Numbered from the stretch's first letter, positions 18,234 through 51,774 are shown. The stretch: 64,000 nt of DNA from Schizochytrium sp. TIO01 (GCA_004764695.1 SMSO01000014.1:3219648-3283647), one strand, 5' to 3'. A program made the numbers and translations. Notes: generated by a model from the letters alone, not told the origin.

Positions 18234-18268
<35 letters not shown>

Positions 18269-31983: not shown

Positions 31984-32361
31984 TTAGTGTTTACGAAGTC
32001 CTAATTTCTCTTTTGTGTGGTCTTTTGTGATTGCCCAAAACACAATCATAGCCTCAATGTGTTGCAGCTCGCTTATAATGGATTGGATATTAATATTTGT
32101 TGGCATTCTTCCGTCGTTGTCATTATGATGGAGATCAGATAATGTGTAAAACATGATATTGAGGATTTCCCAAAATTCTGCGGCTGTTAAATCCTGGAGA
32201 ATAATTTGTGAAAACTGATTTGGAAAGTATGGTTTGGGTAAAAAGCTTCTCAATGCATTAAGGTACAATTTTTGTGAGCATGTAAGGTGAACGTCCTGTT
32301 TCCTTTCAGCATACCAGTTCCAGATTTCATGAGAGAAGACAATGTCATTGACAATTAGCAT
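31984..32361 (-). CDS. Hypothetical protein (125 aa), first ORF of the island
   Basis: ATG in A-rich context (AAAAACAAATG), divergent from the metalloprotease with a 92-bp gap. No recognisable motif. Confidence 0.5.
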   Translation of the reverse strand: MLIVNDIVFSHEIWNWYAERKQDVHLTCSQKLYLNALRSFLPKPYFPNQFSQIILQDLTAAEFWEILNIMFYTLSDLHHNDNDGRMPTNINIQSIISELQHIEAMIVFWAITKDHTKEKLGLRKH

Positions 32362-32453
32362 TTGTTTTTAGCTGGTTGAAATTGTTTGCACCTATGTTAT
32401 TTTGCGCTGGCAATATATAGTAAAAGCAATGAGATTACTTATTATTAGATAGA

Positions 32454-35445
32454 ATGATCCGGTGTTTGCTTTTGGTTTTGATTGTTGGATTTGTTGATGC
32501 GAGCACTTATAGCAATGGTGTGACTACAGATACAATTCGAGCGGTCAGAATTATACCCAACAGCAGCTACTCTTCATTGGTTCCGAGTGATGAGATCATG
32601 GCCGATATAGGCAGCGATTTGAGTACGTTCTATTACTCAAGTTCTGGTGGTAGTTTTGATGTTCACTTATCGGTTGATGAGACTACCTATGTGATGGAAT
32701 CTTTTAGCATTGATGAATCAGATAATTGTTACATCAATGGAGTAGAGGTGACTTCGAGTAGCATGCTTGTTTATGAAGAAGCGTTTGCTCTCGCGGAAGA
32801 TAGTGCAAATGCGTCTACATATGACTCTGTTGCTCTGTTCACCCCTTATTGTAACCTGGGGTATGTTGGAGTTGCTTATGTTGTTGGTTCTCGGTTACAT
32901 ATGAACGTTGCTGCAAGTTCAGTGAATTCAACCGCTTATCTCATGGGAGTTTTAGCGCATGAGTTTGGTCACAATCTTGGTTTGCTGCATGCTCATGCTA
33001 TTGATGGAGAATATGGTAATGAATATGATGAGATGGGTTCAAAGGCTGTTAGCTCAATTTAGTACCTACTACAAGTACTTTTGGAGGTGGATTCCGGAAG
33101 AGAGTATTTTGCAAATGTCACATGGTTTGTATTGCGAAGCAGACGAGTCTTGTGTAAGTGATGATACAACTGTGTGGCTCTATGCTCACGATACAGGAGA
33201 GGGGTTTAATTCATCTCTGTACTACTGTATTTTTTATCGGTTGGAGTATCCAAATACATACATGACGTTGGAATTCCGATCACTCTATGAGAGTGATCTT
33301 CCAGGCGTGATGATGGAATGGGTAACAAGGCGTTATGAAGATATTGCAGGTCCTAGTTACTTGATCGATCCAACTGGCTTGCCCAGATTGGTGACTGATA
33401 CAACTGGAGCTGCTTTTGTCCCTGTAAATTCTACCTATGTGTATGATTATCGCGAGGGAGGAAATGCAGTTGCGGTGACTGTCTTAGAACTTGATGAGGA
33501 TACTCAGCGCGTGAAAGTCAGAGTAAGGCATATGAATAAAAGTGCCAATGATGCAGATGAATTTGAGAATGAACTGCAAAATTTGGCTTCTATTTCTTGT
33601 GGCGACACAGTGAATTTTACAGAAGCGGTGGGGCGTACATTGTTTCATTTGGAAACTCCCAACCCTTCAAAGGTTTCTTTGAATGTAACTTGTGGTGGCT
33701 ACCTAGACGCTTACATTTTTGGAGGCAAACCATTTCATCTATTCAGTGATAGTCAAGGAGAATTTAACCTTGCCACATTTAATTCGACTAGCTTGTATGA
33801 TTGGAATCGGGCATTTGATGTTTCCGGTGTTGAACACTGTTCTGCGGATGCTTGCAATGTTGCTTTAACGGTTTCTCCATTTCTACGTTATGCGGGCGAG
33901 ATGATCTTTTATGCTGTTCCTGGAGTCTCAAGTGGACCCGCTGGGACTGTTTATGTGAATGACCAATATGAAGTGTACCTTAAATCAGTGTACATGGGGT
34001 ACTATGGGATTTATTATTATTGCTGGGTCTTTTACACCAGCTTGGCATGCGGTTCGTTTTACGGATTGATCGGTTCGAACACACTCATTTATCTATCCGA
34101 ACTTACGGAGGACGATATTGCTTTTACTAATCCTATTACCACCAGCTCTTCGCGAAGTTGGACGTCCGCGTGCAGTTCTGAAAGCCGGGCTGCAGATTTA
34201 CAAAATGCTTATGCATACCTTACCCGATACTTTACTGAAAATTTTGAGGTACGCACCTTTGCAAATGACAGTACCTATCTTCTCATTATGGGCGGCATAG
34301 ATGGTGCTACTGCGGAAGTTGTTTGTGATGTGATTTACTGTGGTAGTAATATGTTCATGAATGAATCGAGTGGTCTTTGCGAACCATGTGGTCAAGGTAT
34401 GATGTCGGAACCGAACAGCACTAGCTGTGTTGTGGATTGTTCTTATCTAATGCTGGAATCTCCATACGTGAGTTCAACTGGAGTGATGAAAACGACGGGT
34501 AAATATGTAGATTTAAAGGATTCTTGGGAGTTATATTCTAATGGTGGACGGGATACGAGTTATTTACTATACTTCCTTAATACTCAGGGGTGGGTTCTTG
34601 GGACTGGTTCTGTTGCTTCTGCAGCCTATTCTTATGAGGTGAGTGCGAGCAATTACCGACATCCAGTGCTCGGTGAATCTGGAGTTGAATCTGGATATTC
34701 CTTGACATGTATGTGTGCAGATTTCCCTTATTGTGGAGAATGTGATGGTCTTGGCGATGGTGCAATGGTAAGTCCTCTCGGTGGTACCTCTTGTTTTGTT
34801 CCGTACGAATTTATCTACGTAACATCTAGTGAAAATCATAGTATAGCAGGGAATTATAGCTTCAGCACTATGACAGATGGTTATCCAGTTTTTAGCTCTG
34901 CGAATTATACTCTGACTCGTGATTACTCTGTTGAGTGGTCGTTCGTTGCTCTTGTTAACTCTTCGATTGTGGCCACGAAGTCGGAAAGTATTAGCGTTTT
35001 TTGGCCAACGAATATTAGCAGTACAACGGCGTGGTCAACTGGTTATCTTTCTATTGCTCCACAAGAGAACTCTCTTGTCATGCAGGACATCTATTCTTCA
35101 ACATTTTTTGCTATAACTCCTGCACCAACATCGTCACCTACTATGCCGACGCCTTTACCAACATCGTCACCTACAGTTTCACCCACGGCTCCAACTCCTG
35201 CACCAACAATGAGACCTACGCTTGGAAATCCTTCTTCAGCACCTACGATTTCAGATGATACTAGTCTTTCTTACTTAAAGGAACTGTTTGAACAAATTGG
35301 TTCAAATCATATTTATCTAGGTCTCACAGTCGGTGCACTTTCTTTGCTCTGTTTTATGGTGATTTATCGTTTTGTTTATTATAATAGGTCTCATCAGATT
35401 GCAACACAGTATAATTTCGCGAATCAAATTGATGACTTTTCATAA
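32454..35445 (+). pseudogene. M11 (gametolysin)-like metzincin type-I membrane metalloprotease, split by one frameshift near 33050
   Basis: ORF1 has a signal peptide, HEFGHNLGLLH zinc motif and Met-turn YGNEYDEMG. ORF2 continues AQFSTYYKYFWRWIP (typical post-Met-turn FxxxxKxxxxWI), then a Cys-rich CxxC module, a PTxxPT mucin stalk, a TM helix (IYLGLTVGALSLLCFMVIY) and a short tail. Could be a real lesion or a sequencing indel. Confidence 0.8.
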
Positions 35446-35469
35446 ATGTTTTATTTTTAATTGAGGTTT

Positions 35470-37617
35470 TCATTTTGGAGTTGTTCTTTCCCTCTCCAAC
35501 GCAAGTCGAAGTCTAGCAATCTCTCGACTAGAGCTTAGTGCGAAGTCTTCCTCACTCATTTCTGACTTGCCAACGGACATGCCGAAGTCGATGATGACAG
35601 GCCTTTGAGTTTCCTTGTTGTATAGGATATTACGGGTCGCCACATCACCATGCAGTACACCATGGGAGTGAATGTCATCGAGAGCATCCACTGCCTTTTC
35701 CACAAAGTCATCGGTGATGTCTTCAGGTCTTAAAGGTTCGCCAGAATACTTTGTTCCGAGGCCGTAAAGAAATCTTTCATCGAAAACGCCACAATCGATG
35801 AACACTGGGATGTGTATTCCTTGCAGCGGTTCTAATTGCTTGTAAATTTCAGCTTCATTGTCAAGTTCGTGCATCTGATCTGCTTGCTTAACAAGGTCCA
35901 ATACCTTCACCACGTTGTCGCTCTTATCATCTCCTGCTTCGTGGAAGTTCAAACGAAATACTGCCCCTGTGCGACCGGGTGAAAGCGCGGTGCACCCAGC
36001 CTTGCGTAGCTTGACTAGTTCGACCGCTTCACCATCCTTTGTATATTTTGCACCATACTTATTTAGTGTCGAAGAAGGTGGTCGTCCATTTGGTGACGAA
36101 GTCCGTGGTGATACATTTTTCGGCCTCTTTGGGTCCTGTACGCTATCACATTCACGTGGTAGATCTTTCCTACTAATCGAATCATCCGATTTGCAGGGAA
36201 CCATCATAGAATTTCCATAACCTCGGAAATCCATAACTTGTTCATCAGCAGCGAGAAGAATAGCGAGTGCAACGAGCTGCAACGTACTGATTTTCTTATT
36301 TTCAGTATCACCCTCTTGATCCCATAAAATAGCTTCCGTGATAAGCAGATGTCCCCGCCCGTCTCTAATGAAAACATGAGTGTGTATATAGTTCGTGTAA
36401 ATACCAACCAAAACCTCATTCAAAACCATGTAGTTGTAAAGTTGACGAATGACCGAATGGTCTTCATGCCGCTGTGAACCACAGAGAGGATTTAGGCATT
36501 CTTTATTACAATAATCATTAGCGAGTTTAGCAGTGGTGGGAAACCCAGGACCTTTGAATTCGCCCATGATCAACGGTTTGCGGTTACCGTCTTCTGACTT
36601 ACAATTGATAGCAAAGTCTGCGCGACCTACTAGTCCTCCAGTCACAAGGTTTCCATACAAAGAGAGATCTTTAGGAATGGAATTGTTTTCAGTGGACGTC
36701 TGATTGAGTGCATGTGTTAGACATAGGATGGCATTTGTAAACGCTTTATCGACTGAACTTTCATTGTTAAGTTTTGCGTAGAGACCATAATTTGCAAATG
36801 TATTGCCAAAGTCGACTGTAGTCTCGACGTTATTCAGGATATTAATGTAGCCATGGTCTTCACAATAATCCCAGAAATTTGATGGAGAAAAATTATCCGC
36901 CTGCAAGGGTGATACAGGGTATGATATTAAGTTCGCAAGACTTGTCTTGTTTGCGGTTAATTCACCCTCCTGTTCCCAGTTTGGTAGATGTACTTTGGTG
37001 GCATCCATCATCTTCTTCGGTTCCGGAGATGACTGTAACCGTTCTCTTAGCGTTGAGATGTCTTCATCGGTAGAGGTTATAAGATCATGCACTTTTGCAA
37101 GGCGTTGTTCTTTGGCAACAATGTCTTGCTTGGTCACTTCTAACGACTTTTCCTTTTGGAGAATTTTTTTGGACAAATTCACGCAAAGGGCAAGAGTATC
37201 GTCCTGTATATCATCGGGCGAGTACCCGTACCTCCTCTGGAACGATTTTGACTTGATCTCACCACGACAGAAAGCATCGAGAAAGTCGTAGTCGTCCTCA
37301 TTTCCTAGCTTTTCTTTAAGTTTTTTCTCGATTTGCTCGATTTCTTGCGAAAGCTTGGCTTTTTCATCCTTGAGGTCCTCAAGTGCTCGATCCATACGCT
37401 TGTACTCCTCAATCTTTTCTGCATTCAAAGTTAAAGACCGTTGCAAGAGGGATTCATCATCTCTTGGGAGTGTGCTTACGCGCCTGAAAGTGGTGCGTCT
37501 GTTTGGATTGTTTGTGAACATCTGAATTGATGAGGGGCGAGATTCACGTCTACTAGCGGCACTCCTTGCGAAATTGGAGGCTGCATTTTTTAACCCCTTG
37601 ATAGTAGCACCTATCAT
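35470..37617 (-). CDS. Coiled-coil header + PD-(D/E)xK restriction-endonuclease-like domain + minimal protein kinase (Crinkler/CR-effector-like), copy 1
   Basis: REase-like: NESSV, GRADF, IMGEFKGP, VIRQLYNYMVLN..GIYTNY. Kinase: SPGRTGAVF, VVKVLD, NEAEIYKQL..LQGIHIP, LHGDVATRNILY, IIDFG. Confidence 0.85.
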   Translation of the reverse strand: MIGATIKGLKNAASNFARSAASRRESRPSSIQMFTNNPNRRTTFRRVSTLPRDDESLLQRSLTLNAEKIEEYKRMDRALEDLKDEKAKLSQEIEQIEKKLKEKLGNEDDYDFLDAFCRGEIKSKSFQRRYGYSPDDIQDDTLALCVNLSKKILQKEKSLEVTKQDIVAKEQRLAKVHDLITSTDEDISTLRERLQSSPEPKKMMDATKVHLPNWEQEGELTANKTSLANLISYPVSPLQADNFSPSNFWDYCEDHGYINILNNVETTVDFGNTFANYGLYAKLNNESSVDKAFTNAILCLTHALNQTSTENNSIPKDLSLYGNLVTGGLVGRADFAINCKSEDGNRKPLIMGEFKGPGFPTTAKLANDYCNKECLNPLCGSQRHEDHSVIRQLYNYMVLNEVLVGIYTNYIHTHVFIRDGRGHLLITEAILWDQEGDTENKKISTLQLVALAILLAADEQVMDFRGYGNSMMVPCKSDDSISRKDLPRECDSVQDPKRPKNVSPRTSSPNGRPPSSTLNKYGAKYTKDGEAVELVKLRKAGCTALSPGRTGAVFRLNFHEAGDDKSDNVVKVLDLVKQADQMHELDNEAEIYKQLEPLQGIHIPVFIDCGVFDERFLYGLGTKYSGEPLRPEDITDDFVEKAVDALDDIHSHGVLHGDVATRNILYNKETQRPVIIDFGMSVGKSEMSEEDFALSSSREIARLRLALERERTTPK

Positions 37618-38075
37618 GGTGTTCGAACGATTTTTGAGGTGTTCGAACGATTGGGTTTTGCTGCTCTTGAGAACTAGGTTTGGATGCTTCCTCTATTGTT
37701 TATACTTGATTTACTAATGAATGGTACTAGTAGATATTCTTACTTATTTATTTGTTTCTTACACACAAACCCATGTCTTCTTCTACACTGCACGAGGGAT
37801 AAATTATAAAACAACCTCTGAATATCATTACGATCTATATAGGTGAAATAATATGCTAAGTATTCTTTTTTTAAAATTACTAGCTAGTATTTTGCGAAAC
37901 CCATAATAATCCGCGAATTAAAGTCTGCAGTGCTCGTTTGCATAACTTTGATGCCGTGGCTGGTGGCGTGGCCGCAGCGTCCACGAATCTATTTCTCTCC
38001 TCGCACGCGCCGTATGCCGTGTGCGCGCACGCACACGCGCTCATTCTACCCATCTCTCCCTCCACTGTTCGATCA

Positions 38076-38550
38076 CGCAAGTCAAACGTTGTGATGATTC
38101 GATGCAAGTGGGTAAGATCGATGCCCCCGCTCGCCAAGGCCAAGGACAACTTTCCATGCATCGTTTGACTGCGTAAGTCGAAAGTTGTGCAGGTTGTGCT
38201 GGCTCGTGCCGGTAGGTAGGAGAAGAGAAGATCGGTCATCGACCTTGATCAAGCGTAAGTCGCGAGTTGTGCAGGCAGTGCTAAGCAGGAGAGGAGAATT
38301 GAAGATCGGCCCTCTCAGTAGCCCTTGATCGATCGTTTGATTGAGTTGTGCAGGCAGTGTTGTTTGAGACTTGAAGAACGATCCTCTGACTCGCCAGTGG
38401 TAGAGGTTTGACTACTTATCTTTCGATCGCCTAAGTCGAGAGTTGTGCAGTTTGTGGGATGAGAGAAGATCGATAGATAGATACCCTCCCTCGCTCACTA
38501 ACTCTCAGTAGACCTTGATCATTAGATCGCGTAAGTCAAAAGTTGTGCAG
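38076..38550. repeat. Degenerate iterated array, core CGTAAGTCRNRAGTTGTGCAG about every 80-100 bp (6 units)
   Basis: Cores at 38076, 38172, 38254, 38343 (partial), 38430 and 38530. Sub-motifs GAGAAGATCG and CTCTCAGTAGACCTTGATC recur between them. A more eroded equivalent lies at ~49820-50197. Confidence 0.8.
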
Positions 38551-38629
38551 AGGGGTAAAGAAGAAAGGGAGACATCATGGGACGAGTTGATGAACCAAAA
38601 TTTGACATTCAGAAACTAACTTTGACAAG

Positions 38630-39395
38630 ATGGATCAGTCGGTTCAAGATTCGATTTATCGAATTTACCTAGTAAAAGCGATAAAGCGCCTGATTTGATT
38701 TATAACATTGTTACTTTCATTGAAGGTGTAGAACCAGTATATACGCCAGACGGATTGCCGACACACAATTTCTTAAAATGTGCTTTGGAATTTGCTCTAC
38801 AGTACAAACCCCGCTACATTGATTGTGTCAACGAACTTGTGGATCTGGAGGGCTTTACCTTTTGGTTATCTGAACAGAACGCATCAGAGCTTTCTACTCG
38901 CGGAGTGATTCTTTTGAAACTGGTTCTGGTAATCAAAAGATAAAAACATTGAAAGTCTGGGGAAGTTGAGGACGGAGATGTCTAAACTGTTCATGGAGGT
39001 TGATTTTCCTTCTGGGATAATTAAGAATGTACAACTGCGTGAGGTTCCTAATTATGTTGCGGAGCGCTTCTTGCGCAATGTATTTCCATCAACTACGGAC
39101 TACCGACGCCATTATTTATACCACGAATAAACCTTTCTACCGATTCAAAAGAACCTTCTGTCAGAGGGGACATCACATACTCTAAGTCGGTGTCAAAAGT
39201 CGGCAAACGATACGGTCTTTCAAGGGTCCCGGTGGATCTGGCAAGACCCGTCTAGGTGTTGAGCTGGCAAAACATGGAGTGAACTATGTCGATGAAGATA
39301 AAAAGAAAGCTTTATCTGCGTTTATTCAGATGAATAAACACCTTTGTTTAGACTCCTCGTACTTTCGTCAAGAATATAAATTCGGGGCTCGATGA
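38630..39395 (+). pseudogene. Fragmented hypothetical ORF
   Basis: Protein-like segments in shifting frames (MDQSVQDSIYRIYLVKAIK / YNIVTFIEG...FWLSEQNASEL / MSKLFMEVDF...YRRHYLYHE / LAKHGVNYVDEDKKKALSAFIQMN) separated by frameshifts and stops. Confidence 0.45.
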
Positions 39396-39624
39396 ACAAT
39401 GTCCGTCCTGGTTGTTTGGGCGTATGCTCTCTATTTTCGGACTCCATGGATGGTGCGTTTTCTCCTGCGTATCGCTTTTTGACTAAACTTGCTTTCCTTT
39501 CCCACGTTCCTTTCTTTTTTTCTTTTTCCCCTTCAGTTCCTGTTGCTTGTCAATCTTAAAAAAAAATAAAATAAAAATGTTTGTTGCTTTTTCATGGTCA
39601 AATGAACATTCTTTTTCTTTTTTA

Positions 39625-39804
39625 TTCCTAATCATTAGAATGATTATTTTTTGACTTTTTCATGTTCATTTTTTTTTTAATTCTCAATCAAATAACATTT
39701 TTTTTTTTAAATACCCAATCATTAGAATGAAAATAGCATTCTTTTTTTATTTATTCCCAATCATTAGAATGAGAATAGCATTCTTTTTTTAAATTCCCAA
39801 TCAT
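39625..39804. repeat. ~42-bp tandem repeat containing the inverted repeat TCATT-AG-AATGA
   Basis: CC(C/T)AATCATTAGAATGA at ~39627, ~39714 and ~39756, with partial copies at ~39681 and ~39796, each followed by T-runs. Lies just downstream of the RuvC stop. Confidence 0.85.
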
Positions 39805-39813
39805 GTTTTTGTT

Positions 39814-40425
39814 TTAATTGAGAATGTCTTGCTCTGCCAGAGCATATTTTGCAAAAGGGTTGACTTCCTTCACAAGTACGATGGTGGGTAATATTGTTTG
39901 CGCATAGAACATGATATATGCCATGGCGTCACCGAGGTGGTCTTTTTGAACTGCTTTTCTGAAGGCTGGTAAAGTGTGTAAAAGTTTTGAAGTGATTTCC
40001 ACGACCTGTACGCGCCTTTCAACTTTAGATTGTGACATTTTAAAATATGCATGCATGGAGCGTGGTGAGATCAATTGGACAAAAGATGATCCTTTCCTTG
40101 CCCCAAATCTCTGCTTTAGGAAAACATGAAGAAGCTGTTCAATGTCTTTGTGAGTACTTGTGATGGGCTGCGCTTCGATGATGACTTGATCTACTTTTTG
40201 AAACCATGGTCGGAGCAGCTCCACAAAATGGTGAACGAGATGTGCGCCTTTGCGATCCTTTTCTTCGAAAGGGCATTCTTTGGGTTTTTTACATGTAAGA
40301 TTGCGAAGGTCTTGCATGTGCGCATAGACGGGCGTGATTTCAAACGTTTCATTGTCAATGTCTGCAAACGCACAGGCAAGATGGCTGAATCCCACATCTA
40401 TTCCAACGACTCGAGTAAGGTTCAT
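39814..40425 (-). CDS. Holliday junction resolvase, poxvirus A22/RuvC-like
   Basis: VVGIDVGFSHLA, VIIEAQP, LISPRSMH and KDHLGDA give the RuvC D-E-D-D active site with the viral A22-type ExQP signature. Confidence 0.88.
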   Translation of the reverse strand: MNLTRVVGIDVGFSHLACAFADIDNETFEITPVYAHMQDLRNLTCKKPKECPFEEKDRKGAHLVHHFVELLRPWFQKVDQVIIEAQPITSTHKDIEQLLHVFLKQRFGARKGSSFVQLISPRSMHAYFKMSQSKVERRVQVVEITSKLLHTLPAFRKAVQKDHLGDAMAYIMFYAQTILPTIVLVKEVNPFAKYALAEQDILN

Positions 40426-42493: not shown

Positions 42494-42554
42494 AGACTAG
42501 TCATTATATGTATAAAGTGAATCTGAATTATAATAATAGTAGCTGGCTTACATC

Positions 42555-45500
42555 ATGTCGGACGCGGTTTACGAGGATGTGCTTAGGCGGGCAGTTCGTC
42601 TAAGAGATGAAAACCCACAGTTCAAGCGTCAACTCAATCGAATCATTCTCCACATAACCAACAGTATGTCGTATGCAGAGGTTCTTGAACAGAATGCGAA
42701 ACTAGATGAATTTGATCATCAGGTTGAAGATGGTACGAATGAAGGTAGTAAAACCGTGCAGGATGCTGAAAATACGCTACCTGAGTCTCCACAATTGCTT
42801 GCTCAAACATCAGGGGACGGGAAAAAGAGAGGACGGTCGATTGTCAAAAAGGAGGATAAAGAGTTGAACGCTTCGCTCACAAGAGAATCAGAGCAATACT
42901 TGAAGGAATTGTTAACCACAAAGGGTTTTCATAAGCTAAAATCTTTCGGTCCAGCTATGTTGGAGTGTTTTGGATTCGATGATGGCAACTATTTGGGTTA
43001 TTCTTCGGCGGATGCGAGGGTCTATGAGATTGTTCATATCCTCGAGGATATCATCAATAAAACAAGTCCTGATCAAGAACATGTTTCGATTCATATTGAA
43101 ACTAATATTACTTATCACGTTACAACTCAAAGATTTCATAACTTGGACGACACTGTCAATTTTATTTACAACATTCTTGTAGAAGATCCGGATGAGGCTA
43201 GATACTATTCGTTACCAATTGTTCTAGATAATTTTGAAGATGATTCAAGTGAGGAAGATGATCAAGAAGAAGATGACCTCCATGCAAATCTTTTAATTTT
43301 AGATTTAAAAGAGCATTCTGTCATTCATTTTGAACCACACGGGAGGGGAACACGGCTGTATGATGTTGAAGTGTTCACAGCAAGGATGAGGGAATTAGTT
43401 GAAAGGTCATTTAGGAAGTTCAATAAACAAGAGAAAACAAAGTACTTTCTGTTGGATGTGGGGTCAGGGTCTGAAGCAGAAGAGAATTCAGAGAAAGATG
43501 GGATTCCCTGGAGATTTCTTACAAACTTAAGTCAATCATTCGGCCGTATCGGTCCTCAATCAAGTTCAGGGCGTTGGTACCGCCAGAATGTTAACTTACG
43601 CGTTACGAAAAGAACATCTGATCTTGAGACTCTTTGGACGCAAAGACTCACAGACGGATTCTGTTTCGCGTGGTGTTTGCTAGTTACCTATGTGGTCTTG
43701 GCTCCAGTTGATTATACTGATGCTAAATCCAAAGTAGGATTCAAAGGAGAATTTGGGGAGGCCTCTGCTGATGGAACCACTTTGCGTGACAGGTTTGACA
43801 TCACTGCCGAAAGTTTTGATCCTACTCTTCTTTTCGATCGATTTGTGAATTTCCACAATTGCTCAGGCGAATTTATGGGACAGACCATGCTGCGCTTTGC
43901 AAGTTTTATCGCTAAATGTGATAAAACTCTCATTCGGGAACTGGCTATCTTTGGCGATCAGATAGAAATTGACGAGGGTGACTCGAGGACATTATCTGAA
44001 GAACTCATCCCCGTGCGACTAACTTCACTAATGAGTCCTTACTTTGAGCATGTTGAAATTTTATCGACGAGAATTTCCATGACTCCTGGAAATATTGTCA
44101 TCCCTCCAAATGTAATCAATCTATTGTCTCATCATGCAGACAGTGGCGATTCAAGCAATTCTCCAGGGTCCTTGTCTGGTTATGCACAAATGGTCATCGT
44201 AATCGTTCAACGGGACAACGCTTTATTGTATTTGATGCTTTCACCGCGAAAGAGGCAGTACTGTATTCAATTCACTTCCGATAGTCTCTTACAGCGCATT
44301 CCTATCGATGAAAGTCTTGATCGAGAAATTGAAAACTATGGTAAGGGTACATGGAAGAAACAATTATTAAATACGAAACAATTGGTTCCGACGAGTTCAA
44401 TGGTTGATGGCTTTGCGCTGAATTATGAATCCTCGACATTAAGCACTCTTGAACGTCAGTTTCTTACCATACTATTGCAAGTTTGGTTGTTTTGTGTTGT
44501 TCACATTTTGAATCCTCAAGTCGATGGGGGGGACTTATTCGAAATGGTCAAGTTGAAAGATGCAATTTTAGATGATTCTGATTTTGCGGTAGTCAAGTTT
44601 AAATTGATTCGAAAAGATGCTCAAAATAGGCGCTTAAATTGGACAAAGCTAGCCTTGCTCAATAGGTTCAGACTTTACCTTTTGGACGGTCTTGAGCTGG
44701 AATATTGGCAGTCCATAAAGCGTTACTCAATCGATATCATTCCTGAATCTTATAAAGAAGCGATCGATGAATCCTTGAATAGTAGCGAATTTATAGAGGA
44801 GCTTGATGGAGAAATCATCCCAACAATCCTATCTCAGTTGGACACTGAAGATCCTGAAGACATGCAATGGTTAAGCTCAATGACTAAACTAAGGGATTTG
44901 GGGATTATGTACAAATTATGTGAAGGTTATTCAGAAGTTAATGAGAATAATGCCGATGAAGTGCTCGCTCTGTTTGATCAGATTCTGAATTATAAGTACA
45001 TGAAAGTGCAGGAGGTCATTCCCAAATTACTCAACAATCTAGATAACGAGGCAATTCGATCAATGGACGAATCATCAGTGTCGTCTAGTGTTTACTTTAA
45101 AGTTGTGGTCCATTATCTAAAGGTTTTCATGCCCGGTGCTCCTTTGGATACCATCACTGGCTTGATCTTGTGCGCTTCACTTTTGAAACATATTCCTCAT
45201 TTTTGGATGATTGTTGCAAAATCCTACATGGAATGCATTGACATGGTATCCACTAATGATTTTACCAATGGCTTCGAGCAATTGTGTATTGCGAGTCAAA
45301 TGACCATTTCTTTGAAAATGTTCCCCCGTAAGACTTTCATCATGAAAAAGGTGAATTTCAGAACCTTTAGAAAAATGTTTGACGAATCTATTCAACAGAA
45401 GGAGGTGATACAATTTCAAGAAATCTTCCAGTCATTGGAAGCGGATTTGGAACCGTTATCATGGGTGATGAAACAAGTACCACCTGAGCAATTTCCTGAT

Positions 45501-47141
45501 GTGATCTTGGCAATTTTTGACAATGATAGCATTCCTCCATCTAGCAAGTCTACTTTATTCGGTCTTAGAGGTATAACATCTAGCATGGTTTACGATGCCA
45601 TTCTTAAGCAGGCAGATAAGGTTGCGGATTTTTCAAGGAAGTTCTTCAACTTGGAATATGGTACTCACTTCTTCAGAGACAACGAAAGGTCAGCTAAATT
45701 TTTCTTGTTGGAACTCATAGATGCTTATCCTAACATGTATCTTCCATACTTTACTACACATGATATGTTTAGGAGTATCATGACTGCTGAATCGCTCTCT
45801 TTTAATGAAAAGCTAATGGATATAGAGAGGATCAGTAATATCATCGACATATTTTACACATACAAGGAAATTTTGAATTCAGCCAACTCATCAATTGATG
45901 ATCTTATTTCTAAATTAGACGGTAGCACTTTTGATAGGTTGATCCTCCTGCATGGACTAAGAAAATTTAAAACGTATGATGACGGCGATCGTGCAGATCT
46001 AATACACAATCTACCAAACTTATTAAAGGGTGATTATTTTATGTTGTCTTTGCAGCGCGAATTGGCTCGTCGACTAAATCTTCTAAGGAACGAACCTTTT
46101 CTCGGTACCGAGATTGCTTCAACGGATCATCACTCATATCGCTATGATGTTCTTCCGCACTTTCACTCTTTGCCTGAGCAGAAGAATATGCACAAAAGAA
46201 TATCGCACCTGTACTTAAGAGAACAAACAGAACATTCATACACAGCTCCTCACAAAGATCCTGATTCACGAAGTAGAGGATCAGTAGGAGAAAGGGGATT
46301 TCAATCAAAGGAAGGAGTAGAAGAAGAGGAAGGGTCAGAAGAAGGGTTGGAAAAGACAGTGCAGGGTAAAGCATATAGAGATGAATACAGAAAAGTAAAC
46401 AATAAACAAAAAGGTACAAACAAAGGCCCTGTGTTAGACTTAGACGTGATTGTTGAGCAGAACTATCCGCCATCTTTATTCAAAAGGATTCAGAAGGATA
46501 TTTATCGATGGAATTTGATACTTCGTGTAGCTGATGGAGAAGATTTTTTAAATAATAATGAGTCTCTTGTTGAAAGCGATTTGGATGAATCATCAGATGA
46601 AGAAGAACAACCGTTTGACCACGCCATTGCAAATCGTAGTACTTTATTTTTGAGTGAAAATGAGGGGCATCATTCTGCAGAATCTCAAGAAGAAGAGGAT
46701 TCTGAAGAAGAAGAAGAGGATTCTGAAGAAGAATCTGAAGAAGAAGAGGATTCTGAAGAAGAAGAGGATTCACAAGAAGAAGAGGATTCACAAGAAGAAT
46801 CTGAAGAAGAAGAGGATTCTGAAGAAGAAGAGGATTCACAAGAAGAAGAGGATTCTGAAGAAGAAGAGGATTCTGAAGAAGAATCTGAAGAAGAAGAAGA
46901 TTCACAAGAAGAAGAATCTGAAGAAGAGGAGGATTCACAAGAAGAAGAATCTGAAGAAGAAGAGGATTCACAAGAAGAAGAATCTGAAGAAGAGGAGGAT
47001 TCACAAGAAGAAGAATCTGAAGAAGAAGAGGATTCACAAGAAGAAGAATCTGAAGAAGAGGAGGATTCACAAGAAGAAGAATCTGAAGAAGAAGAGGATT
47101 CACAAGAAGAAGAATCTGAAGAGGATTCCCACGAAGAATAA
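42555..47141 (+). CDS. Large hypothetical protein (1528 aa) with N-terminal cysteine-protease-like motif set and acidic repeat tail
   Basis: HANLLILD..IHFEPHG..GPQ..DGFCFAWC places His, Glu, Gln and Cys in clan-CE order. The C-terminal ~150 aa is E/D/S/Q repeats. Confidence 0.8.
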   Translation: MSDAVYEDVLRRAVRLRDENPQFKRQLNRIILHITNSMSYAEVLEQNAKLDEFDHQVEDGTNEGSKTVQDAENTLPESPQLLAQTSGDGKKRGRSIVKKEDKELNASLTRESEQYLKELLTTKGFHKLKSFGPAMLECFGFDDGNYLGYSSADARVYEIVHILEDIINKTSPDQEHVSIHIETNITYHVTTQRFHNLDDTVNFIYNILVEDPDEARYYSLPIVLDNFEDDSSEEDDQEEDDLHANLLILDLKEHSVIHFEPHGRGTRLYDVEVFTARMRELVERSFRKFNKQEKTKYFLLDVGSGSEAEENSEKDGIPWRFLTNLSQSFGRIGPQSSSGRWYRQNVNLRVTKRTSDLETLWTQRLTDGFCFAWCLLVTYVVLAPVDYTDAKSKVGFKGEFGEASADGTTLRDRFDITAESFDPTLLFDRFVNFHNCSGEFMGQTMLRFASFIAKCDKTLIRELAIFGDQIEIDEGDSRTLSEELIPVRLTSLMSPYFEHVEILSTRISMTPGNIVIPPNVINLLSHHADSGDSSNSPGSLSGYAQMVIVIVQRDNALLYLMLSPRKRQYCIQFTSDSLLQRIPIDESLDREIENYGKGTWKKQLLNTKQLVPTSSMVDGFALNYESSTLSTLERQFLTILLQVWLFCVVHILNPQVDGGDLFEMVKLKDAILDDSDFAVVKFKLIRKDAQNRRLNWTKLALLNRFRLYLLDGLELEYWQSIKRYSIDIIPESYKEAIDESLNSSEFIEELDGEIIPTILSQLDTEDPEDMQWLSSMTKLRDLGIMYKLCEGYSEVNENNADEVLALFDQILNYKYMKVQEVIPKLLNNLDNEAIRSMDESSVSSSVYFKVVVHYLKVFMPGAPLDTITGLILCASLLKHIPHFWMIVAKSYMECIDMVSTNDFTNGFEQLCIASQMTISLKMFPRKTFIMKKVNFRTFRKMFDESIQQKEVIQFQEIFQSLEADLEPLSWVMKQVPPEQFPDVILAIFDNDSIPPSSKSTLFGLRGITSSMVYDAILKQADKVADFSRKFFNLEYGTHFFRDNERSAKFFLLELIDAYPNMYLPYFTTHDMFRSIMTAESLSFNEKLMDIERISNIIDIFYTYKEILNSANSSIDDLISKLDGSTFDRLILLHGLRKFKTYDDGDRADLIHNLPNLLKGDYFMLSLQRELARRLNLLRNEPFLGTEIASTDHHSYRYDVLPHFHSLPEQKNMHKRISHLYLREQTEHSYTAPHKDPDSRSRGSVGERGFQSKEGVEEEEGSEEGLEKTVQGKAYRDEYRKVNNKQKGTNKGPVLDLDVIVEQNYPPSLFKRIQKDIYRWNLILRVADGEDFLNNNESLVESDLDESSDEEEQPFDHAIANRSTLFLSENEGHHSAESQEEEDSEEEEEDSEEESEEEEDSEEEEDSQEEEDSQEESEEEEDSEEEEDSQEEEDSEEEEDSEEESEEEEDSQEEESEEEEDSQEEESEEEEDSQEEESEEEEDSQEEESEEEEDSQEEESEEEEDSQEEESEEEEDSQEEESEEDSHEE
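46680..47138 (+). repeat. Coding tandem repeat (21-33 bp units, GAAGAAGAGGATTC...) encoding EEEEDSQEEES
   Basis: Directly visible. A regular 33-bp unit appears in the 3' half. Confidence 0.95.
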
Positions 47142-47215
47142 TTTAAAGAAGAGAATCATAGTATAATTTCGTAAATGATAACTTTTCCTTTTTTAAAGAA
47201 GAAATACAACAACTG

Positions 47216-50197
47216 TAAATGTTTTAGTTTTTTACTCCTCTTACTTTGCCCAACGAATGTCGAAGTTCATTAATCTCTTGATCGGCAGCTCTTGCGAAGT
47301 ATTCATCACTCATTTCCATCTTGCGAACGGCTATGCCGAAGTCAACTATGACAGGCCTTTGAGTTTCCTTATTGTATAGGACATTGCGGGCATCCACATC
47401 ACCGTGCAATACACCTTGGGAATGAATTTCATCGAGAGCAATCACTGCCTTTTCCACAAAGTCATCAGTGATGTCTTCAGGTGTTAAAGGTTCGCCAGAA
47501 TATTTTGTCCCAAGACCGTACAGAACATCGCATTCAAAAAGGCCATAATCGATAAATTCAGGGATGTGTTCGCCTTGTAGCGATTTTAACTGTTTGTAAA
47601 TTTCAGCTTCATTTTCAAGCTCTGGTATCTGTTCTTCTTGCTTAAAGCAATCCAGTATCTTCAAAACGCTGTCGATCTTCTCACCTGTTGGTAGGGGGAT
47701 ACCAATCCGAAGTGTCCTACCCGTGCGACCGGGTGGGAGTTCAGTGTACCCATCAAGTTTTAATAAAGGTAAATGAATCGACGCCCCATCTTTGCGGAAA
47801 TGTTTAGGGTCCTCGGAATTTTGATTTTCGTGCTTCTCTATCTTCGCGTCATTACTGGCTTTACACACTGCAGGTAGAACGACGCGTTCTGGAGTCTGCC
47901 CCGGGCCGCCTAAACAGGGAACCAAGATGCTATTTTCAATTTCACTGAAGTTCATCTCGCTTGTATCCGCTGCGAGCAAGATAGCAAGTGCGATAAGTTG
48001 CATCGAACTGAGTTTGCCGCGAGCGATATCACCAACATCTTCAGCCCGAACAGACTTTGTGATCATTAGATTTCCTTCACAGTCCCTGATAAGAACACAA
48101 GTCACTTTGTAGTTCGAGTAGACGCCAACCAGTAGACCATTCAAAAACATGTAGTTGTATAGTTGACGAACAACTGAATGCTTTTTATGACGGTCTGAAT
48201 CACATCCAGGACAGTCATGATCACAATAAGTCTCACTGAGGTTGTCGTAGGAGTACTTCTCACCAGGACCTTTCAACTCACCTACGATCAACGGAATATG
48301 GGTACCATCTACTGTCTTAGCAGCAAAAGAAAAGTCTGCTTTACCCTCTATTCCTTTCGGGTCAGCCGTATAGATGGAGACCTCATAAGGGACTTTTTCG
48401 TTGGATTCTTCGGTCATGGCTTCTGTTACAAGAAACATAACCTGATCAAATGCTGTCGTGACAGTTGCTTCGTTTGAGAATGTTTTTTTATTACTCATCC
48501 TTTCAAAGACATCTTCGAAGTTGACGGTAGATTGCAGTTCATTCAGAATATCAATGTACCCTTTCTCGTTACTGTAGTGCACGAAAGACTCCACTAACAA
48601 AGGTCTGACCTTCGCAGGCGAAGCGGGGTAATTTTCGAGGTTCGAGATATCTGTCTTGCTTGTTCGTATTTTGGGTGAATCCTGAACATTTGGTAGACGA
48701 TGACTGGTGACCGACAGAAAATTTTGCGGTTCCGTACGAGAAATCAAATCACTTAACCTCCTCACTTCAGCTTGGTGATCATCGATTATGTCCTGCGTTT
48801 TTGCAAGGCGTTGTTCTTTGGCAAGAATTTGTTGCTCTTTCACTTCTAACGACTTTTCTTTTTCGATAATTTTTTTGGACAAATTCACGCAAAGGGCAAG
48901 AGTAGCGTCCTGTATATCATCGGGCGAGTACCCGTACCTCTCCTGGAACGATTTTGACTTGATCTCACCACGACAGAAAGCATCGAGAAAGTCGTAGTCG
49001 TCCTCATTTCCTAGCTTTTCTTTAATTTTCTTCTCGATTTGCTTGATTTCTTGCAAAAGTTCGTCTTTTTCAGCCTCGAGGTCCTCAATTTTTCGATCCA
49101 TACGCTTGTACTCCTCAGCCTTTTCTGCATGCAAAGTTCTAGCGTCGGCCAAGAGGGAAGCTAATTCCTGATTCAAGACTACGTGTTTCATAGGAGTGGG
49201 TCTGTCTGAATCGGTTGTGAACATCTGAATTGATGAGAGGCGGGGTTCTCGTCTTCTAGCGGCACTCCTTGTCTGGTTGGTGATCTTGGAGGCTGCATTT
49301 TTTAATCCCTTGATAGTAGCACCTATCATGGTGTTCGAACGATTTTTGAGGTGTTCGAACGATTGGGTTTTGCTGCTCTTGAGAACTAGGTTTGGATGCT
49401 TCCTCTATTGTTTATACTTGATTTACTAATGAATGGTACTAGTAGATATTCTTACTTATTTATTTGTTTCTTACACACCCTCAAATCAAACCCATGTCTT
49501 CTTCTAATGACTCATACACTGCACGAGGGATAAACTATAAAACAAGCTCTGAATATCATTACGATCTATATAGGTGCAATAGTATGCTAAGTATTCTTTA
49601 AAAAAAAATTACTACTCAAGAATAAAATGTAGTTATCTTTCATAGTGCTAGTATTTTGCGAAACCCATAATCCGCGAATTAAAGTCTGCTTTGTTGCATA
49701 ACTTTGATGCCGTGGCTGGTGGCGTGGCCGTGGCGTCTACGAATCTATTTCTCTCCTCGCACGCGCCGTATGCCGTGTGTGCGCACGCACACGCGCTCAT
49801 TCCACCCATCTCTCCCTCCACGCAAGTCAAACGTTGTGATGAATCGATGCAAGTGGGTAAGATCGATACCCTCGCTCGCCAAGGCCAAGGACAACTTTCC
49901 ATGCATCGTTTGATTGCGTAAGTCGAAGGTTGTGCTGGCTCGTGCCGGTAGGTAGGAGAAGAGAAGATCGGTCCTCTCAGTAGACCTTGATCAAGCGATT
50001 TGTGCAGGCAGTGCTAGGCAGGAGAGGACAATTGAAGATCGGTCGTTTGATTGAGCAGTGTTGTGTAAAAGAACGATTTTCGCCAGTGGTAGAGGTTTGA
50101 CTACTCATCTTTTGATCACCTAAGTTGAGAGTAGTTGTGCAGTTATAGAAAGATGGATACCCTCGCTCACCAAGGACAACCTTTGATCAATCGTTTG
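47216..50197 (-). repeat. Duplicated ~3 kb REase-kinase cassette, copy 2
   Basis: 49320-49477 matches 37608-37765 essentially base for base. 48801-49040 closely matches 37096-37335. Upstream GC-rich and iterated motifs are shared. Confidence 0.92.
47224..49329 (-). CDS. Coiled-coil header + PD-(D/E)xK REase-like domain + minimal protein kinase (Crinkler/CR-effector-like), copy 2
   Basis: NEATV, GKADF, IVGELKGP, VVRQLYNYMFLN..GVYSNY; PPGRTGRTL, VLKILD, NEAEIYKQL, LHGDVDARNVLY, IVDFG. Paralogue of 35470-37617. Confidence 0.85.
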   Translation of the reverse strand: MIGATIKGLKNAASKITNQTRSAARRREPRLSSIQMFTTDSDRPTPMKHVVLNQELASLLADARTLHAEKAEEYKRMDRKIEDLEAEKDELLQEIKQIEKKIKEKLGNEDDYDFLDAFCRGEIKSKSFQERYGYSPDDIQDATLALCVNLSKKIIEKEKSLEVKEQQILAKEQRLAKTQDIIDDHQAEVRRLSDLISRTEPQNFLSVTSHRLPNVQDSPKIRTSKTDISNLENYPASPAKVRPLLVESFVHYSNEKGYIDILNELQSTVNFEDVFERMSNKKTFSNEATVTTAFDQVMFLVTEAMTEESNEKVPYEVSIYTADPKGIEGKADFSFAAKTVDGTHIPLIVGELKGPGEKYSYDNLSETYCDHDCPGCDSDRHKKHSVVRQLYNYMFLNGLLVGVYSNYKVTCVLIRDCEGNLMITKSVRAEDVGDIARGKLSSMQLIALAILLAADTSEMNFSEIENSILVPCLGGPGQTPERVVLPAVCKASNDAKIEKHENQNSEDPKHFRKDGASIHLPLLKLDGYTELPPGRTGRTLRIGIPLPTGEKIDSVLKILDCFKQEEQIPELENEAEIYKQLKSLQGEHIPEFIDYGLFECDVLYGLGTKYSGEPLTPEDITDDFVEKAVIALDEIHSQGVLHGDVDARNVLYNKETQRPVIVDFGIAVRKMEMSDEYFARAADQEINELRHSLGKVRGVKN

Positions 50198-50216
50198 TTT
50201 TATTTCAAAAGCTGTA

Positions 50217-51176
50217 CTATTCAGAGTTTATATTCATGAGTCCTCTACCAAACGCACACTGATTCGGTGCTTCTTTTTGAAGCTTATATCTATACTTTAC
50301 ATAATAATCAATGTCATTCCAACACTCAGGCTCCACTGTGCTCATAAGTAGGTACTCTTGAATGTCAGAAGCCCAGGGCGGGATGTCCAAAACATGTGAG
50401 ACAATAAAGGCTCTCTGTGTGATATCTTTCATTTTAATTTTATCCCTTAGCCATCTGTCAAATCCGTGCTTGTCACCAGTCTTTAGTATGCCATATGCAA
50501 AATTTCTCAGACCTGATACGGAATCAAAATGCCCCTTTTCACACATTAAATTAGCTCTCCAAGGTCCAACATATCTGATACAAGTGAGACACTCATCTAC
50601 AATCGTTTCTTCGTTCTCAAGATCATCAAGTTCCTTAAGCAGATCGCGCTTCGGTGCAATCCATTCTTTATAGATGTTTTCCAAAGCGAGAACGTCTGCA
50701 TCAGCTCGGTGCGCATTCTCAATAGGTTTGCCAAACATGACCTCATGAACATCCCCCAATCTAAATGATTTCATATTGGGGTAATTTTTCCTTAACCAAG
50801 GTAAAGAGTCCCAAAATTTAATTTGTTGAGGAACAACACCATTCAACTCTTTGAGGAGAATTAATTGATCAAAATATGTGTTATTGTGAGCAATCATTTC
50901 CACATAATCGAAATCCTCGACGTGGAACTCTTTAAACATTTTAGCAACAACCTGTTCGATGGTGGGTGCATCTTTGATGTCTTGGTCATGAATGTTGTGA
51001 ATCAATGAAGAATTAGGAGGAATTCCTCCCTTAAAACCGGGATTGACGAATGATATAAAAATGGGTCCATCTACAATTTTTGCGCATATTTGTAGAATTT
51101 TATGATTTTTACTAAACATTGGCATGTTCCGAAAACCGGTCGTTTCCAAATCGTATATAATATGAAGAACTTTCAT
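50217..51176 (-). CDS. DEDDh 3'-5' exonuclease (DNA Pol III epsilon-like) with C-terminal helix-hairpin-helix-like segment
   Basis: ExoI IIYDLETTG, ExoII IAHNNTYFD, ExoIII AHRADADV, and CIRYVGPWRA. Likely start is ATG 51176 (MKVLHIIYDLE), not the GTG at 51437. Confidence 0.9.
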   Translation of the reverse strand: MKVLHIIYDLETTGFRNMPMFSKNHKILQICAKIVDGPIFISFVNPGFKGGIPPNSSLIHNIHDQDIKDAPTIEQVVAKMFKEFHVEDFDYVEMIAHNNTYFDQLILLKELNGVVPQQIKFWDSLPWLRKNYPNMKSFRLGDVHEVMFGKPIENAHRADADVLALENIYKEWIAPKRDLLKELDDLENEETIVDECLTCIRYVGPWRANLMCEKGHFDSVSGLRNFAYGILKTGDKHGFDRWLRDKIKMKDITQRAFIVSHVLDIPPWASDIQEYLLMSTVEPECWNDIDYYVKYRYKLQKEAPNQCAFGRGLMNINSE

Positions 51177-51774
51177 GTTTTTAATAGCGGCCGCTTGTCG
51201 TCTCGAGTTTGCATTAGATTTTTTTTTTTGTTCTGTTGAGCGGGGGAGGGTTCTTGGATTAAGCTCTCCAAATGTATGTTTCAACCGCTTATTGTCTCGT
51301 TTCACAGCACTAATCTGTATCCTTGGACCTGCTTTAGGATCAGATGTCTCTGTGACGACATCCGATGGGACAACTGAAGAATCAGGTGTAGAGGTGGTCG
51401 GCAATGAAATAGTTTCATGCAATCTAAACACTGACACTGGTAATATGCTGTGTGCGAATAGAGGTTATGATACTATCACCCAATATCACAACGTTAGGCA
51501 GTTAATGATGTGTGAGTATCACTACTGTGTAACCTTCACAGACGATGAAGATGTGTTGACTTGCTCCGGCTATGTGTATAAATCTAACGCTGTAGGCAGC
51601 TCCAAACTTTATAACCCATTGACTCCATGGGTTTCTGATTCCGATTCTAGCACTCGATCCGATGGTACTGTTGTTGAATTAGGTACTCCATTGAATGGTT
51701 ATAACATACTAGTCGATCTTTTTGAAAATGCAGTGCATAGTGACTTTTCTACAGAAGTGAGCGCTGAAAGGTGA
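51175..51774 (+). pseudogene. Secreted-type Cys-containing ORF apparently truncated at the island's right junction
   Basis: Hydrophobic FTALICILGPALG followed by a Cys-spaced extracellular-like sequence. Its last codons run into the interspersed repeat starting at ~51763. Start is uncertain. Confidence 0.45.

What the first reader, a model, noticed from the sequence alone, without database searches (positions are those of the whole stretch)
31984..51762. ~20 kb endogenous giant-virus/mirusvirus-like island inside a protist chromosome
Seen: an abrupt switch from host genes and microsatellite DNA to tightly packed, AT-richer intronless ORFs, including overlapping convergent stops. Established: A22-type Holliday junction resolvases, heliorhodopsins, DEDDh exonucleases and CxHG..C Zn-ribbon endonucleases are recurrent genes of Nucleocytoviricota and Mirusviricota, and mirusvirus-like genomes are known from thraustochytrids as episomal and integrated elements. 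Inference: this is an integrated, partly decaying viral fragment (frameshifted M11 gene, fragmented ORF at 38.6-39.4 kb, truncated ORF at the right edge) in which several genes remain intact.
Basis: partly seen in the sequence, partly recalled or inferred. Interest (0 to 1): 0.88.

Follow-up and report, generated by a model that had tools for sequence, protein, structure and literature searches.

The report
Multi-copy giant-virus fragment in protist chromosome
A 20-kilobase block of tightly packed genes, several of them related to large DNA viruses, sits between ordinary genes of a single-celled eukaryote (probably a marine thraustochytrid) and is likely one of several chromosomal copies of a broken piece of a probable mirusvirus that differs from the two already described in Aurantiochytrium.

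Summary
The island is real: 31995-51762, 80% covered by long ORFs against 32% on both flanks. It encodes a RuvC-fold resolvase, a heliorhodopsin and a DEDDh exonuclease, three published mirusvirus core functions. Their relatives are uncultured environmental proteins at about 40-55% identity, and the one neighbourhood I could read also carries a Snf7-like gene. It is not a copy of AurliV-1 or AurliV-2.

Contig depth is 3.3-6.9 times the flank in three DNA runs, with structural variants at about single-copy depth. (2) The left edge cuts through a viral-type gene that continues in other copies. (3) The two kinases are restriction-endonuclease-fold plus kinase fusions in a duplicated cassette, not viral markers. 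(4) The M11 frameshift is absent from all four runs laid.

No capsid, polymerase or integrase family was hit, and I found no terminal repeat or target duplication. Best reading: a non-autonomous endogenous viral fragment, probably mirusvirus, spread by host recombination. An episome explaining the extra depth is not excluded, and the right junction has no read test. Known kind, new member; interest 0.45.

The parts
28967..29617 (+). Host Mpv17/PMP22 gene, left flank
   Evidence: Pfam PF04117 E 1e-17; single-copy reference depth
31994..31995 (.). Left junction, inside ORF1
   Evidence: Flank contigs of X3 and X8 run 29000-32024 at flank depth; other contigs in X3, X5 and X8 carry different sequence before 31995; depth rises here (tables 2, 7, 8)
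31984..32361 (-). ORF1, 125 aa, 5' part of a viral-type gene cut by the left junction
   Evidence: 30% identical over 115 aa to the N-terminus of a 346-aa protein next to the RuvC gene in L004
32454..35445 (+). Zinc metalloprotease (M11/M12-like, HExxHxxGxxH) with long predicted extracellular part, Pro/Thr stalk and C-terminal hydrophobic segment; two frames in the window (32454-33062, 32959-35445); origin not determined
   Evidence: Pfam Reprolysin/M11; all 4 laid runs differ from the window by an 8-base indel at 33044
35470..38550 (-). Cassette A: REase-fold + protein kinase gene (35470-37617, 715 aa) and its upstream non-coding region
   Evidence: Pkinase; middle domain Z 11.6 to BpuSI nuclease domain; 82% DNA identity to cassette B over 1441 columns
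38626..39556 (+). Broken ORF in several frames with a P-loop (GxxGxGKT) fragment; absent from some copies
   Evidence: Stop-to-stop frames; weak AAA_18 E 0.012; X5 contig 38862-39557 at 3.4x depth has only 1 gap letter against the window; joint 38443-39812 in X3 and X15
39814..40425 (-). RuvC/A22-type Holliday junction resolvase, 203 aa, intact
40763..41779 (+). Cys-rich (EsV-1-7-like) putative endonuclease, 338 aa
   Evidence: Atlas 0.96, 213 shared features, clusters 97-100% viral among labelled members; weak DUF2726
41768..42493 (-). Heliorhodopsin, 241 aa, intact, with TM7 SxxxK lysine
   Evidence: Pfam PF18761 E 1e-31; solved heliorhodopsins E 1e-29
42555..47141 (+). 1528-aa protein of unknown family with a Glu/Asp/Ser repeat tail (46679-47122)
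   Evidence: no hit
47224..50200 (-). Cassette B: second REase-like + kinase gene (47224-49329, 701 aa) and upstream non-coding region
   Evidence: 52% protein identity to kinase A; repeats D7-D18
50217..51176 (-). DEDDh 3'-5' exonuclease, 319 aa, intact
   Evidence: Pfam RNase_T E 4e-16; relatives; D9, E11, D103, H156, D161 conserved
51175..51762 (+). Ser/Thr/Cys-rich ORF whose frame runs into a host repeat (right edge)
   Evidence: no family
51763..52179 (+). About 420-bp dispersed repeat abutting the right edge; further copies at 58591-58985 (-, 82%) and 59063-59418 (+, 68%)
53767..54264 (-). Host MED31 gene, right flank
   Evidence: Pfam PF05669 E 5e-38

Best explanation
The block at 31995-51762 is likely a non-autonomous endogenous fragment of a large DNA virus, most likely a mirusvirus other than AurliV-1 and AurliV-2, and is likely one of about 3 to 7 chromosomal copies of differing extent. 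Inferred mechanism: (1) viral DNA integrated in an ancestor of these strains; (2) REase+kinase cassettes were gained or duplicated within it and one ORF decayed; (3) host recombination or segmental duplication, possibly helped by dispersed repeats like the one at the right edge, copied pieces to new sites. This copy landed between Mpv17 and MED31 with both ends cut through genes. It cannot make particles or move by itself as far as its gene content shows. Shown: gene content, repeated depth, structural variants, left cut through ORF1. Inferred: donor taxon, chromosomal location of the other copies, order of events, host taxon.
For: Viral origin: RuvC fold with top viral-library matches in Pandoravirus, Medusavirus and Pithovirus. 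The endonuclease resembles large-virus clusters. The 8 RuvC, 17 heliorhodopsin and 52 exonuclease relatives are almost all unnamed environmental proteins. Relatives of all three list the same longest-contig length, 15,950 bp, and resolvase and exonuclease relatives also share 312,973 bp, which suggests but does not show linkage. Prokaryote genomes gave no resolvase relative (0 of 108 candidates) and only N-terminal exonuclease matches at 40% or less. Mirusvirus: resolvase, 3' repair exonuclease and heliorhodopsin are core clusters (PMC10132985). L004 carries a 51% resolvase, the ORF1 homologue and a Snf7-like gene; Snf7 is reported absent from nucleocytoviruses (PMC12768974). Copies: 17 of 17 single-contig depths used are 3.3-6.9x flank and change stepwise along the island; alternative joints sit at 0.6-1.6x flank, a kinase variant at 1.7-4.2x. 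The broken P-loop ORF is shared at 3.4x depth in X5, so decay likely preceded copying. Integration: 14 of 24 listed runs (7 studies, 6 without the likely source) hold 0.88 or more of the words of 39-46 kb. Flank contigs in 2 of 3 DNA runs laid reach 30 bases into the island. No terminal repeat or target duplication.
Against: The left-junction overlap is 30 bases, one short of the tool's 31-base bar, and shows only that the flank joins the repeat. The right junction has no read test. Contig depth is a rough measure; the tool warns it is not a copy number. The AurliV-1 episome keeps a stable 9:1 ratio across cultures (PMC12606086), so similar ratios across runs do not exclude an episome. No labelled mirusvirus sequence could be placed in a tree. 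The best resolvase fold matches are nucleocytoviruses, including Medusavirus, sister to skiaviruses, which also carry A22 and heliorhodopsin. The Atlas labels the endonuclease's relatives Nucleocytoviricota. The Snf7 call rests on one contig and an Atlas score of 0.93 with no Pfam hit. About half of the island (protease, kinases, 1528-aa ORF, right ORF) has no demonstrated viral relative.
Confidence: 0.6

Rival explanations
1. One integrated copy plus an undescribed episomal or persistently infecting virus, present at about 3-6 genomes per host genome, which supplies the extra depth.
For: Thraustochytrids carry circular mirus- and skiavirus genomes at stable ratios. Other copies continue beyond the left junction, and at many sites in 32128-34041 all contig depth carries one non-window allele.
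Against: Depth is stepped rather than flat; several joints sit near 1x flank; the broken P-loop ORF is in the high-depth contigs. None of 8 island N-termini occurs in the AurliV-1/V-2 tables.
Confidence: 0.2
2. The same kind of endogenous fragment, but from a nucleocytovirus (skiavirus/ariadnavirus, medusavirus or pandoravirus relative) rather than a mirusvirus.
For: Top resolvase fold matches are Pandoravirus (TM 0.74) and Medusavirus (0.69); endonuclease clusters are labelled Nucleocytoviricota; skiaviruses infect thraustochytrids and carry A22 and heliorhodopsin.
Against: Those fold matches are only about 20% identical. No hit is named SmDNAV, though most carry no name. L004 has a Snf7-like gene. 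Databases mislabel mirusvirus sequences as Nucleocytoviricota (10.1101/2025.04.19.649669). Heliorhodopsin is in 64% of mirusvirus against 5% of nucleocytovirus genomes.
Confidence: 0.2
3. A self-mobile giant element that uses virus-derived nucleases (resolvase, endonuclease, REase-kinase) to copy itself.
For: Multi-copy; near-identical copies over 41.9-46.5 kb (0-2 differences per listed contig); four predicted nuclease domains; REase+kinase proteins are linked to mobile DNA in the literature (PMC5289972).
Against: Both ends cut through genes; no terminal repeat or target duplication, longest end match 7 nt; no transposase, integrase or polymerase family hit.
Confidence: 0.07
4. Chimeric assembly of a free virus with a host contig.
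For: Repeats at the right edge and high depth invite misassembly; window alleles at many sites are absent from 4 of 4 runs; the right junction is untested.
Against: Flank contigs in X3 and X8 (two studies) run 30 bases into the island at flank depth.
Confidence: 0.05

Closest known systems
AurliV-2 (LE-Chr15), chromosomal mirusvirus integrant of Aurantiochytrium limacinum, and the AurliV-1 episome (10.1101/2023.06.15.545109; PMC12606086)
   Same: Probably the same host group (inferred); about 41% GC in a roughly 45% genome; AurliV-2 encodes a resolvase and a DEDDh exonuclease of the same family, AurliV-1 a resolvase and a heliorhodopsin.
   Different: 20 kb against about 270-300 kb; between ordinary host genes, with no rRNA found in the window; multi-copy; no virion or polymerase family hit; different resolvase and heliorhodopsin sequences (0 of 8 N-termini found).
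Partial, duplicated giant-virus insertions of Acanthamoeba Neff (PMC12210455)
   Same: Multiple partial copies, no mobility genes, adjoining host repeats, post-insertion duplication proposed.
   Different: Those are mostly subtelomeric, strain-specific and silenced. This block is held by runs of 7 studies, copies are near-identical over several kb, and an 89% resolvase relative is in a transcriptome collection.
Skiavirales/Ariadnavirales (SmDNAV relatives; 10.64898/2026.07.28.741200, 10.64898/2026.08.29.747986)
   Same: Thraustochytrid hosts; A22 resolvase core gene; heliorhodopsin and a divergent kinase in SmDNAV; kinase exchange among virus and host reported.
   Different: Reported as circular episomes or lytic viruses; Snf7 not mentioned in either main text; no named SmDNAV protein among the hits.
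CR/Crinkler-type REase + protein kinase C-terminal architecture (PMC5289972, reviewing Zhang et al. 2016)
   Same: The two island kinases have a restriction-endonuclease-fold domain followed by a kinase domain.
   Different: N-terminus is a probable coiled coil (weak SMC-type match); no CR header family was hit; here in a duplicated cassette inside a virus-derived block.

Membership tests
Mirusviricota (donor) | HK97-type major capsid protein, portal, terminase | not testable with these tools
   No mirusvirus models are offered and the donor genome is not available; no virion family passed E 0.001, as expected of a fragment
Mirusviricota (donor) | Core clusters: Holliday junction resolvase, 3' repair exonuclease, heliorhodopsin | tested here: met
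   All three functions present; listed as core; none is exclusive to the phylum
Mirusviricota (donor) | Snf7 gene, reported absent from nucleocytoviruses | tested here: inconclusive
   Not in the island; Snf7-like gene 1.5 kb from the 51% resolvase in L004 (Atlas 0.93; no Pfam Snf7 hit)
Mirusviricota (donor) | Tree placement among labelled mirusvirus genes | tested here: inconclusive
   Quick exonuclease tree, 60 rows: the window groups with unlabelled environmental proteins (SH-aLRT 91, unstarred), the Hondaea protein falls outside in an unresolved position; no labelled mirusvirus row
AurliV-1 or AurliV-2 copy | Same proteins as the published ORF tables | tested here: not met
   0 of 8 island N-termini found; their resolvases and heliorhodopsin differ
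Skiavirales/Ariadnavirales (donor) | Double jelly-roll capsid, A32, VLTF3 | tested here: inconclusive
   No such family hit in the island; a fragment need not carry them
Endogenous viral element | Viral-type genes joined to host DNA, junctions supported by independent data | tested here: inconclusive
   Left: 30 bases of overlap in X3 and X8. Right: no read test
Endogenous viral element | Gene-dense, intron-poor block within gene-sparse host DNA | tested here: met
   80% against 32%
Endogenous viral element | Signs of decay | tested here: met
   ORF1 cut at the junction; broken P-loop ORF shared by high-depth contigs; M11 frameshift not seen in the runs
Polinton/Maverick or DNA transposon | Terminal inverted repeats, target-site duplication, integrase or transposase | tested here: not met
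   Longest match between ends 7 nt; no such family
CR-type REase+kinase protein (two island kinases) | REase-fold domain followed by kinase domain | tested here: met
   Kinase A residues 255-480: Z 11.6, rmsd 3.5, 150 aligned to BpuSI; Foldseek E only 0.015; kinase motifs conserved
CR-type REase+kinase protein (two island kinases) | CR N-terminal header domain | tested here: inconclusive
   No Pfam header family hit; N-terminus not folded

The most novel reading that the evidence does not exclude
The block is the footprint of a third mirusvirus lineage in thraustochytrids, from the marine, intron-poor Demutovirales or a cryptic order. A recent survey found no integrated Demutovirales in eukaryote genomes. 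It has been amplified to several near-identical chromosomal copies and kept across strains, with intact heliorhodopsin, resolvase and exonuclease genes and host-type REase-kinase cargo. That would give an uncultured mirusvirus lineage a culturable host group and show a viral block spreading as a unit.
Probability: 0.2. Interest if true: 0.75.

Novelty: new member of a known kind. Interest (0 to 1): 0.45.

Why it matters
Mirusvirus host range is largely unknown, and every described episome and integrant belongs to Soporavirales. A repeated fragment from a different lineage, held by runs of at least six independent studies, would point to a host for an uncultured virus group. It also supplies intact viral heliorhodopsin and resolvase genes in what is probably an easily cultured protist. 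If the donor is another soporavirus or a skiavirus, it is an ordinary addition to a well-documented pattern.

Tried and rejected
No whole genome is held, so copies could not be mapped.

Viral-contig scans gave no close relative: heliorhodopsin 0 of 1 and 0 of 41 candidates; resolvase 0 of 1, then 3 of 64 at 23% identity; exonuclease 28 of 126 at 26-34% over the N-terminal domain only; 1528-aa segment 0 of 50; L004 Snf7-like gene 0 of 6. The resolvase had no phage match and no PDB sequence match. L004's record is not held for further reading, and its sample name is not in the searched mirusvirus supplements (one file cut, one unreadable).

No RNA holder listed. Run X15 is only guessed to be RNA; its uncovered parts were not used as evidence.

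Rfam: 0 matches in the window. Earlier findings: nothing on this genome; one search gave 8 notes on other genomes, none bearing on this one.

Rejected: bacterial origin of the exonuclease; AT-richness and lack of microsatellites as edge markers; copy of AurliV-1/2; transposon-type ends. PDB sequence hits of the endonuclease to glutamate receptors (E 0.014 or worse) were treated as chance. The careful exonuclease tree did not finish; the quick tree is reported.

Not in print as far as searched: searches found no description of this block. Supplements of the bioRxiv papers (Collier 2023 virus-scan tables, Latimer 2026) could not be seen and may list it.
Full report
OBSERVATION. Between a host Mpv17 gene (28967-29617) and MED31 (53767-54264) lies a block in which ATG ORFs of 150 aa or more cover 80% of the DNA. 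The figure is 32% on either flank and at most 3% in 50 shuffles. GC is 40.8%, against 45.4% to the left and 42.6% to the right; right-hand intergenic DNA is 38-39%, so composition marks only the left side. Microsatellites occur only at 15-32 kb. One convergent pair overlaps by 12 nt.

GENES WITH VIRAL-TYPE RELATIVES. The 203-aa ORF at 39814-40425 folds confidently (pLDDT 86.8). It matches Holliday junction resolvases in the viral library (Pandoravirus TM 0.74, Medusavirus 0.69, about 20% identity) and in the PDB (RuvC, fowlpox resolvase). Its 8 relatives are one transcriptome protein at 89% and seven unnamed environmental proteins at 41-55%. The heliorhodopsin has 17 relatives, up to 54%, and keeps the TM7 lysine. 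The exonuclease has 52 relatives: one 99% copy, most of the rest at 37-50% over nearly the full length, a Hondaea protein at 36%, and a partial Mimivirus hit. Bacterial genomes match only its first 170-190 residues. Relatives of all three list a longest contig of 15,950 bp, and resolvase and exonuclease relatives also 312,973 bp; I infer linkage but did not see those contigs. The Cys-rich ORF resembles large-virus clusters with the EsV-1-7 motif. The one close neighbourhood I could read, L004 (1 of 7 metagenome loci; the others are 23-34% identical), is gene-dense. It has a 51% resolvase next to a 346-aa homologue of island ORF1, a RING-variant gene and a Snf7-like gene.

WHICH VIRUS. Resolvase, 3' repair exonuclease and heliorhodopsin are among 35 mirusvirus core clusters; heliorhodopsin is in 64% of mirusvirus and 5% of nucleocytovirus genomes (PMC10132985, passages). 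Snf7 is reported absent from nucleocytoviruses, and the resolvase absent from Okeanovirales and Styxvirales (PMC12768974, passages; supplements searched). Against this, skiaviruses of thraustochytrids also carry A22 and heliorhodopsin (10.64898/2026.07.28.741200, parts 1-4 of 6 and passages; 10.64898/2026.08.29.747986, passages and section 6), and the nearest named folds are nucleocytoviral. I put a mirusvirus donor at about two in three. The block is not AurliV-1 or AurliV-2: 0 of 8 island N-termini occur in their ORF tables, and their resolvases and heliorhodopsin differ (PMC12606086, passages and supplement searches). A quick exonuclease tree of 60 rows groups the window with the environmental proteins (SH-aLRT 91, not starred) and leaves the Hondaea protein outside, unresolved.

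HOST. A thraustochytrid is inferred, not tested. Twelve of the 14 best-holding runs are 58-69 Mb, and flank GC is about 45%. Both match published Aurantiochytrium values (10.1101/2023.06.15.545109, parts 1-3 of 4).

COPY NUMBER AND JUNCTIONS. Fourteen of 24 listed runs, from 7 studies and 8 organism labels, hold 0.88-0.92 of the words of 39-46 kb; one study may be the window's source. I laid 4 of the 24 on 29000-48900. In the three DNA runs, the 17 island contigs I took from the shown part of table 8 have 3.3-6.9 times the depth of the flank contig, stepped along the island; 1547 rows were not shown, and the tool warns that depth is not a copy number. Alternative joints occur at 0.6-1.6 times flank depth: 32258-38526 (only 26 letters on the short side), 38443-39812 and 38743-38905. 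A replaced kinase segment occurs at 1.7-4.2 times. Flank contigs of X3 and X8 run to 32024, 30 bases past 31995, one short of the tool's bridging bar; X5's listed flank piece ends at 31071. Other contigs in all three DNA runs carry different sequence before 31995. Read by eye, it continues the ORF1 frame, in keeping with a gene whose homologue is 346 aa being cut near codon 122. On the right, the last ORF runs into a 420-bp repeat found three times in the window; this edge has no read test. The ends share no match longer than 7 nt.

DECAY. The P-loop ORF at 38.6-39.6 kb is broken in the window, and an X5 contig at 3.4x depth differs from it by only one letter and one gap, so several copies share the breaks. 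That favours copying after decay. The protease frameshift is different: all contig depth in 4 of 4 runs carries an 8-base indel at 33044, and at many sites in 32128-34041 the window allele is not seen in the DNA runs. It is either private to this copy, and dropped from contigs as a minority, or an assembly error.

KINASE CASSETTES. The two kinases are 52% identical, and a stretch covering their 5' ends and upstream DNA is 82% identical over 1441 columns. A 19-nt motif occurs 7 times upstream of the two genes (0.14 expected). The middle domain of kinase A folds at pLDDT 87.4 and matches restriction endonuclease domains (Z 11.6, rmsd 3.5, 150 residues; Foldseek E 0.015). The family is large (690 representatives); the ten looked up carry no taxon. 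REase+kinase is a common C-terminal architecture of CR proteins (PMC5289972, passages). I read these as cargo rather than viral markers; their origin is not determined.

EXPRESSION. An 89% resolvase relative and a kinase relative are in a transcriptome collection. X15, only guessed to be RNA, holds contigs across the protease/kinase end, 38639-39552 and parts of the 1528-aa gene. This is weak, and it does not show which copy is transcribed.

HOW IT MOST LIKELY WORKS. A non-autonomous viral fragment, integrated once, remodelled, then spread in pieces by host recombination (confidence 0.6). Rivals: an episome behind the extra depth (0.2; AurliV-1 shows that episome ratios can be stable), a nucleocytovirus donor (0.2, compatible with the rest), a self-mobile element (0.07), a chimeric assembly (0.05).

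COMPARISON AND NOVELTY. Integrated mirusvirus DNA in thraustochytrids is known (PMC10827195, passages). Multiple partial copies of giant-virus insertions without mobility genes are known from Acanthamoeba (PMC12210455, passages). This is a new member of that kind. What is new is a donor distinct from the described Aurantiochytrium viruses, an interstitial site, and retention across studies. A survey found no integrated Demutovirales (10.1101/2025.04.19.649669, passages), so placing the donor there would matter; I give that reading 0.2. Searches found no description of this block, but preprint supplements were not visible. Interest 0.45.

Noticed in passing
window 51763-52179, 58591-58985, 59063-59418: Three copies (82% and 68% alike) of a roughly 420-bp non-coding dispersed repeat; two form an inverted pair around MED31 and a 476-aa gene.
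   Followed up: partly
window 38075-38547 and 49820-49934: A 19-nt motif occurs 7 times upstream of the two kinase genes (0.14 expected by chance); a candidate promoter or binding-site array.
   Followed up: partly
window 43101-43961: The 1528-aa ORF has His, Asp/Glu, Gln and Cys motifs recalling CE-clan cysteine proteases (recalled, not from a call); no database hit.
   Followed up: partly
window 39690-39804: A 42-bp AT-rich tandem repeat (2.8 copies) just downstream of the resolvase stop.
   Followed up: no
window 40788-41003: Three internal repeats of about 66 nt at the 5' end of the endonuclease gene; run X8 has a contig that skips 40737-40958.
   Followed up: no
window 9594-12548: Host 984-aa gene with metallo-beta-lactamase and cyclic-nucleotide-binding domains; weak match to the anti-Pycsar Apyc1 family (E 0.019).
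   Followed up: no
window 3531-7964: Host ubiquitin-specific protease (1477 aa) with a weak Tudor-like domain.
   Followed up: no
window 15390-28207: A microsatellite-rich, gene-poor stretch, including a 360-bp ATTG array at 17614-17976.
   Followed up: no
L004 4556-4936: A small helix-hairpin-helix/BAF-like gene near the resolvase and Snf7-like genes in the related environmental contig (weak Pfam).
   Followed up: no
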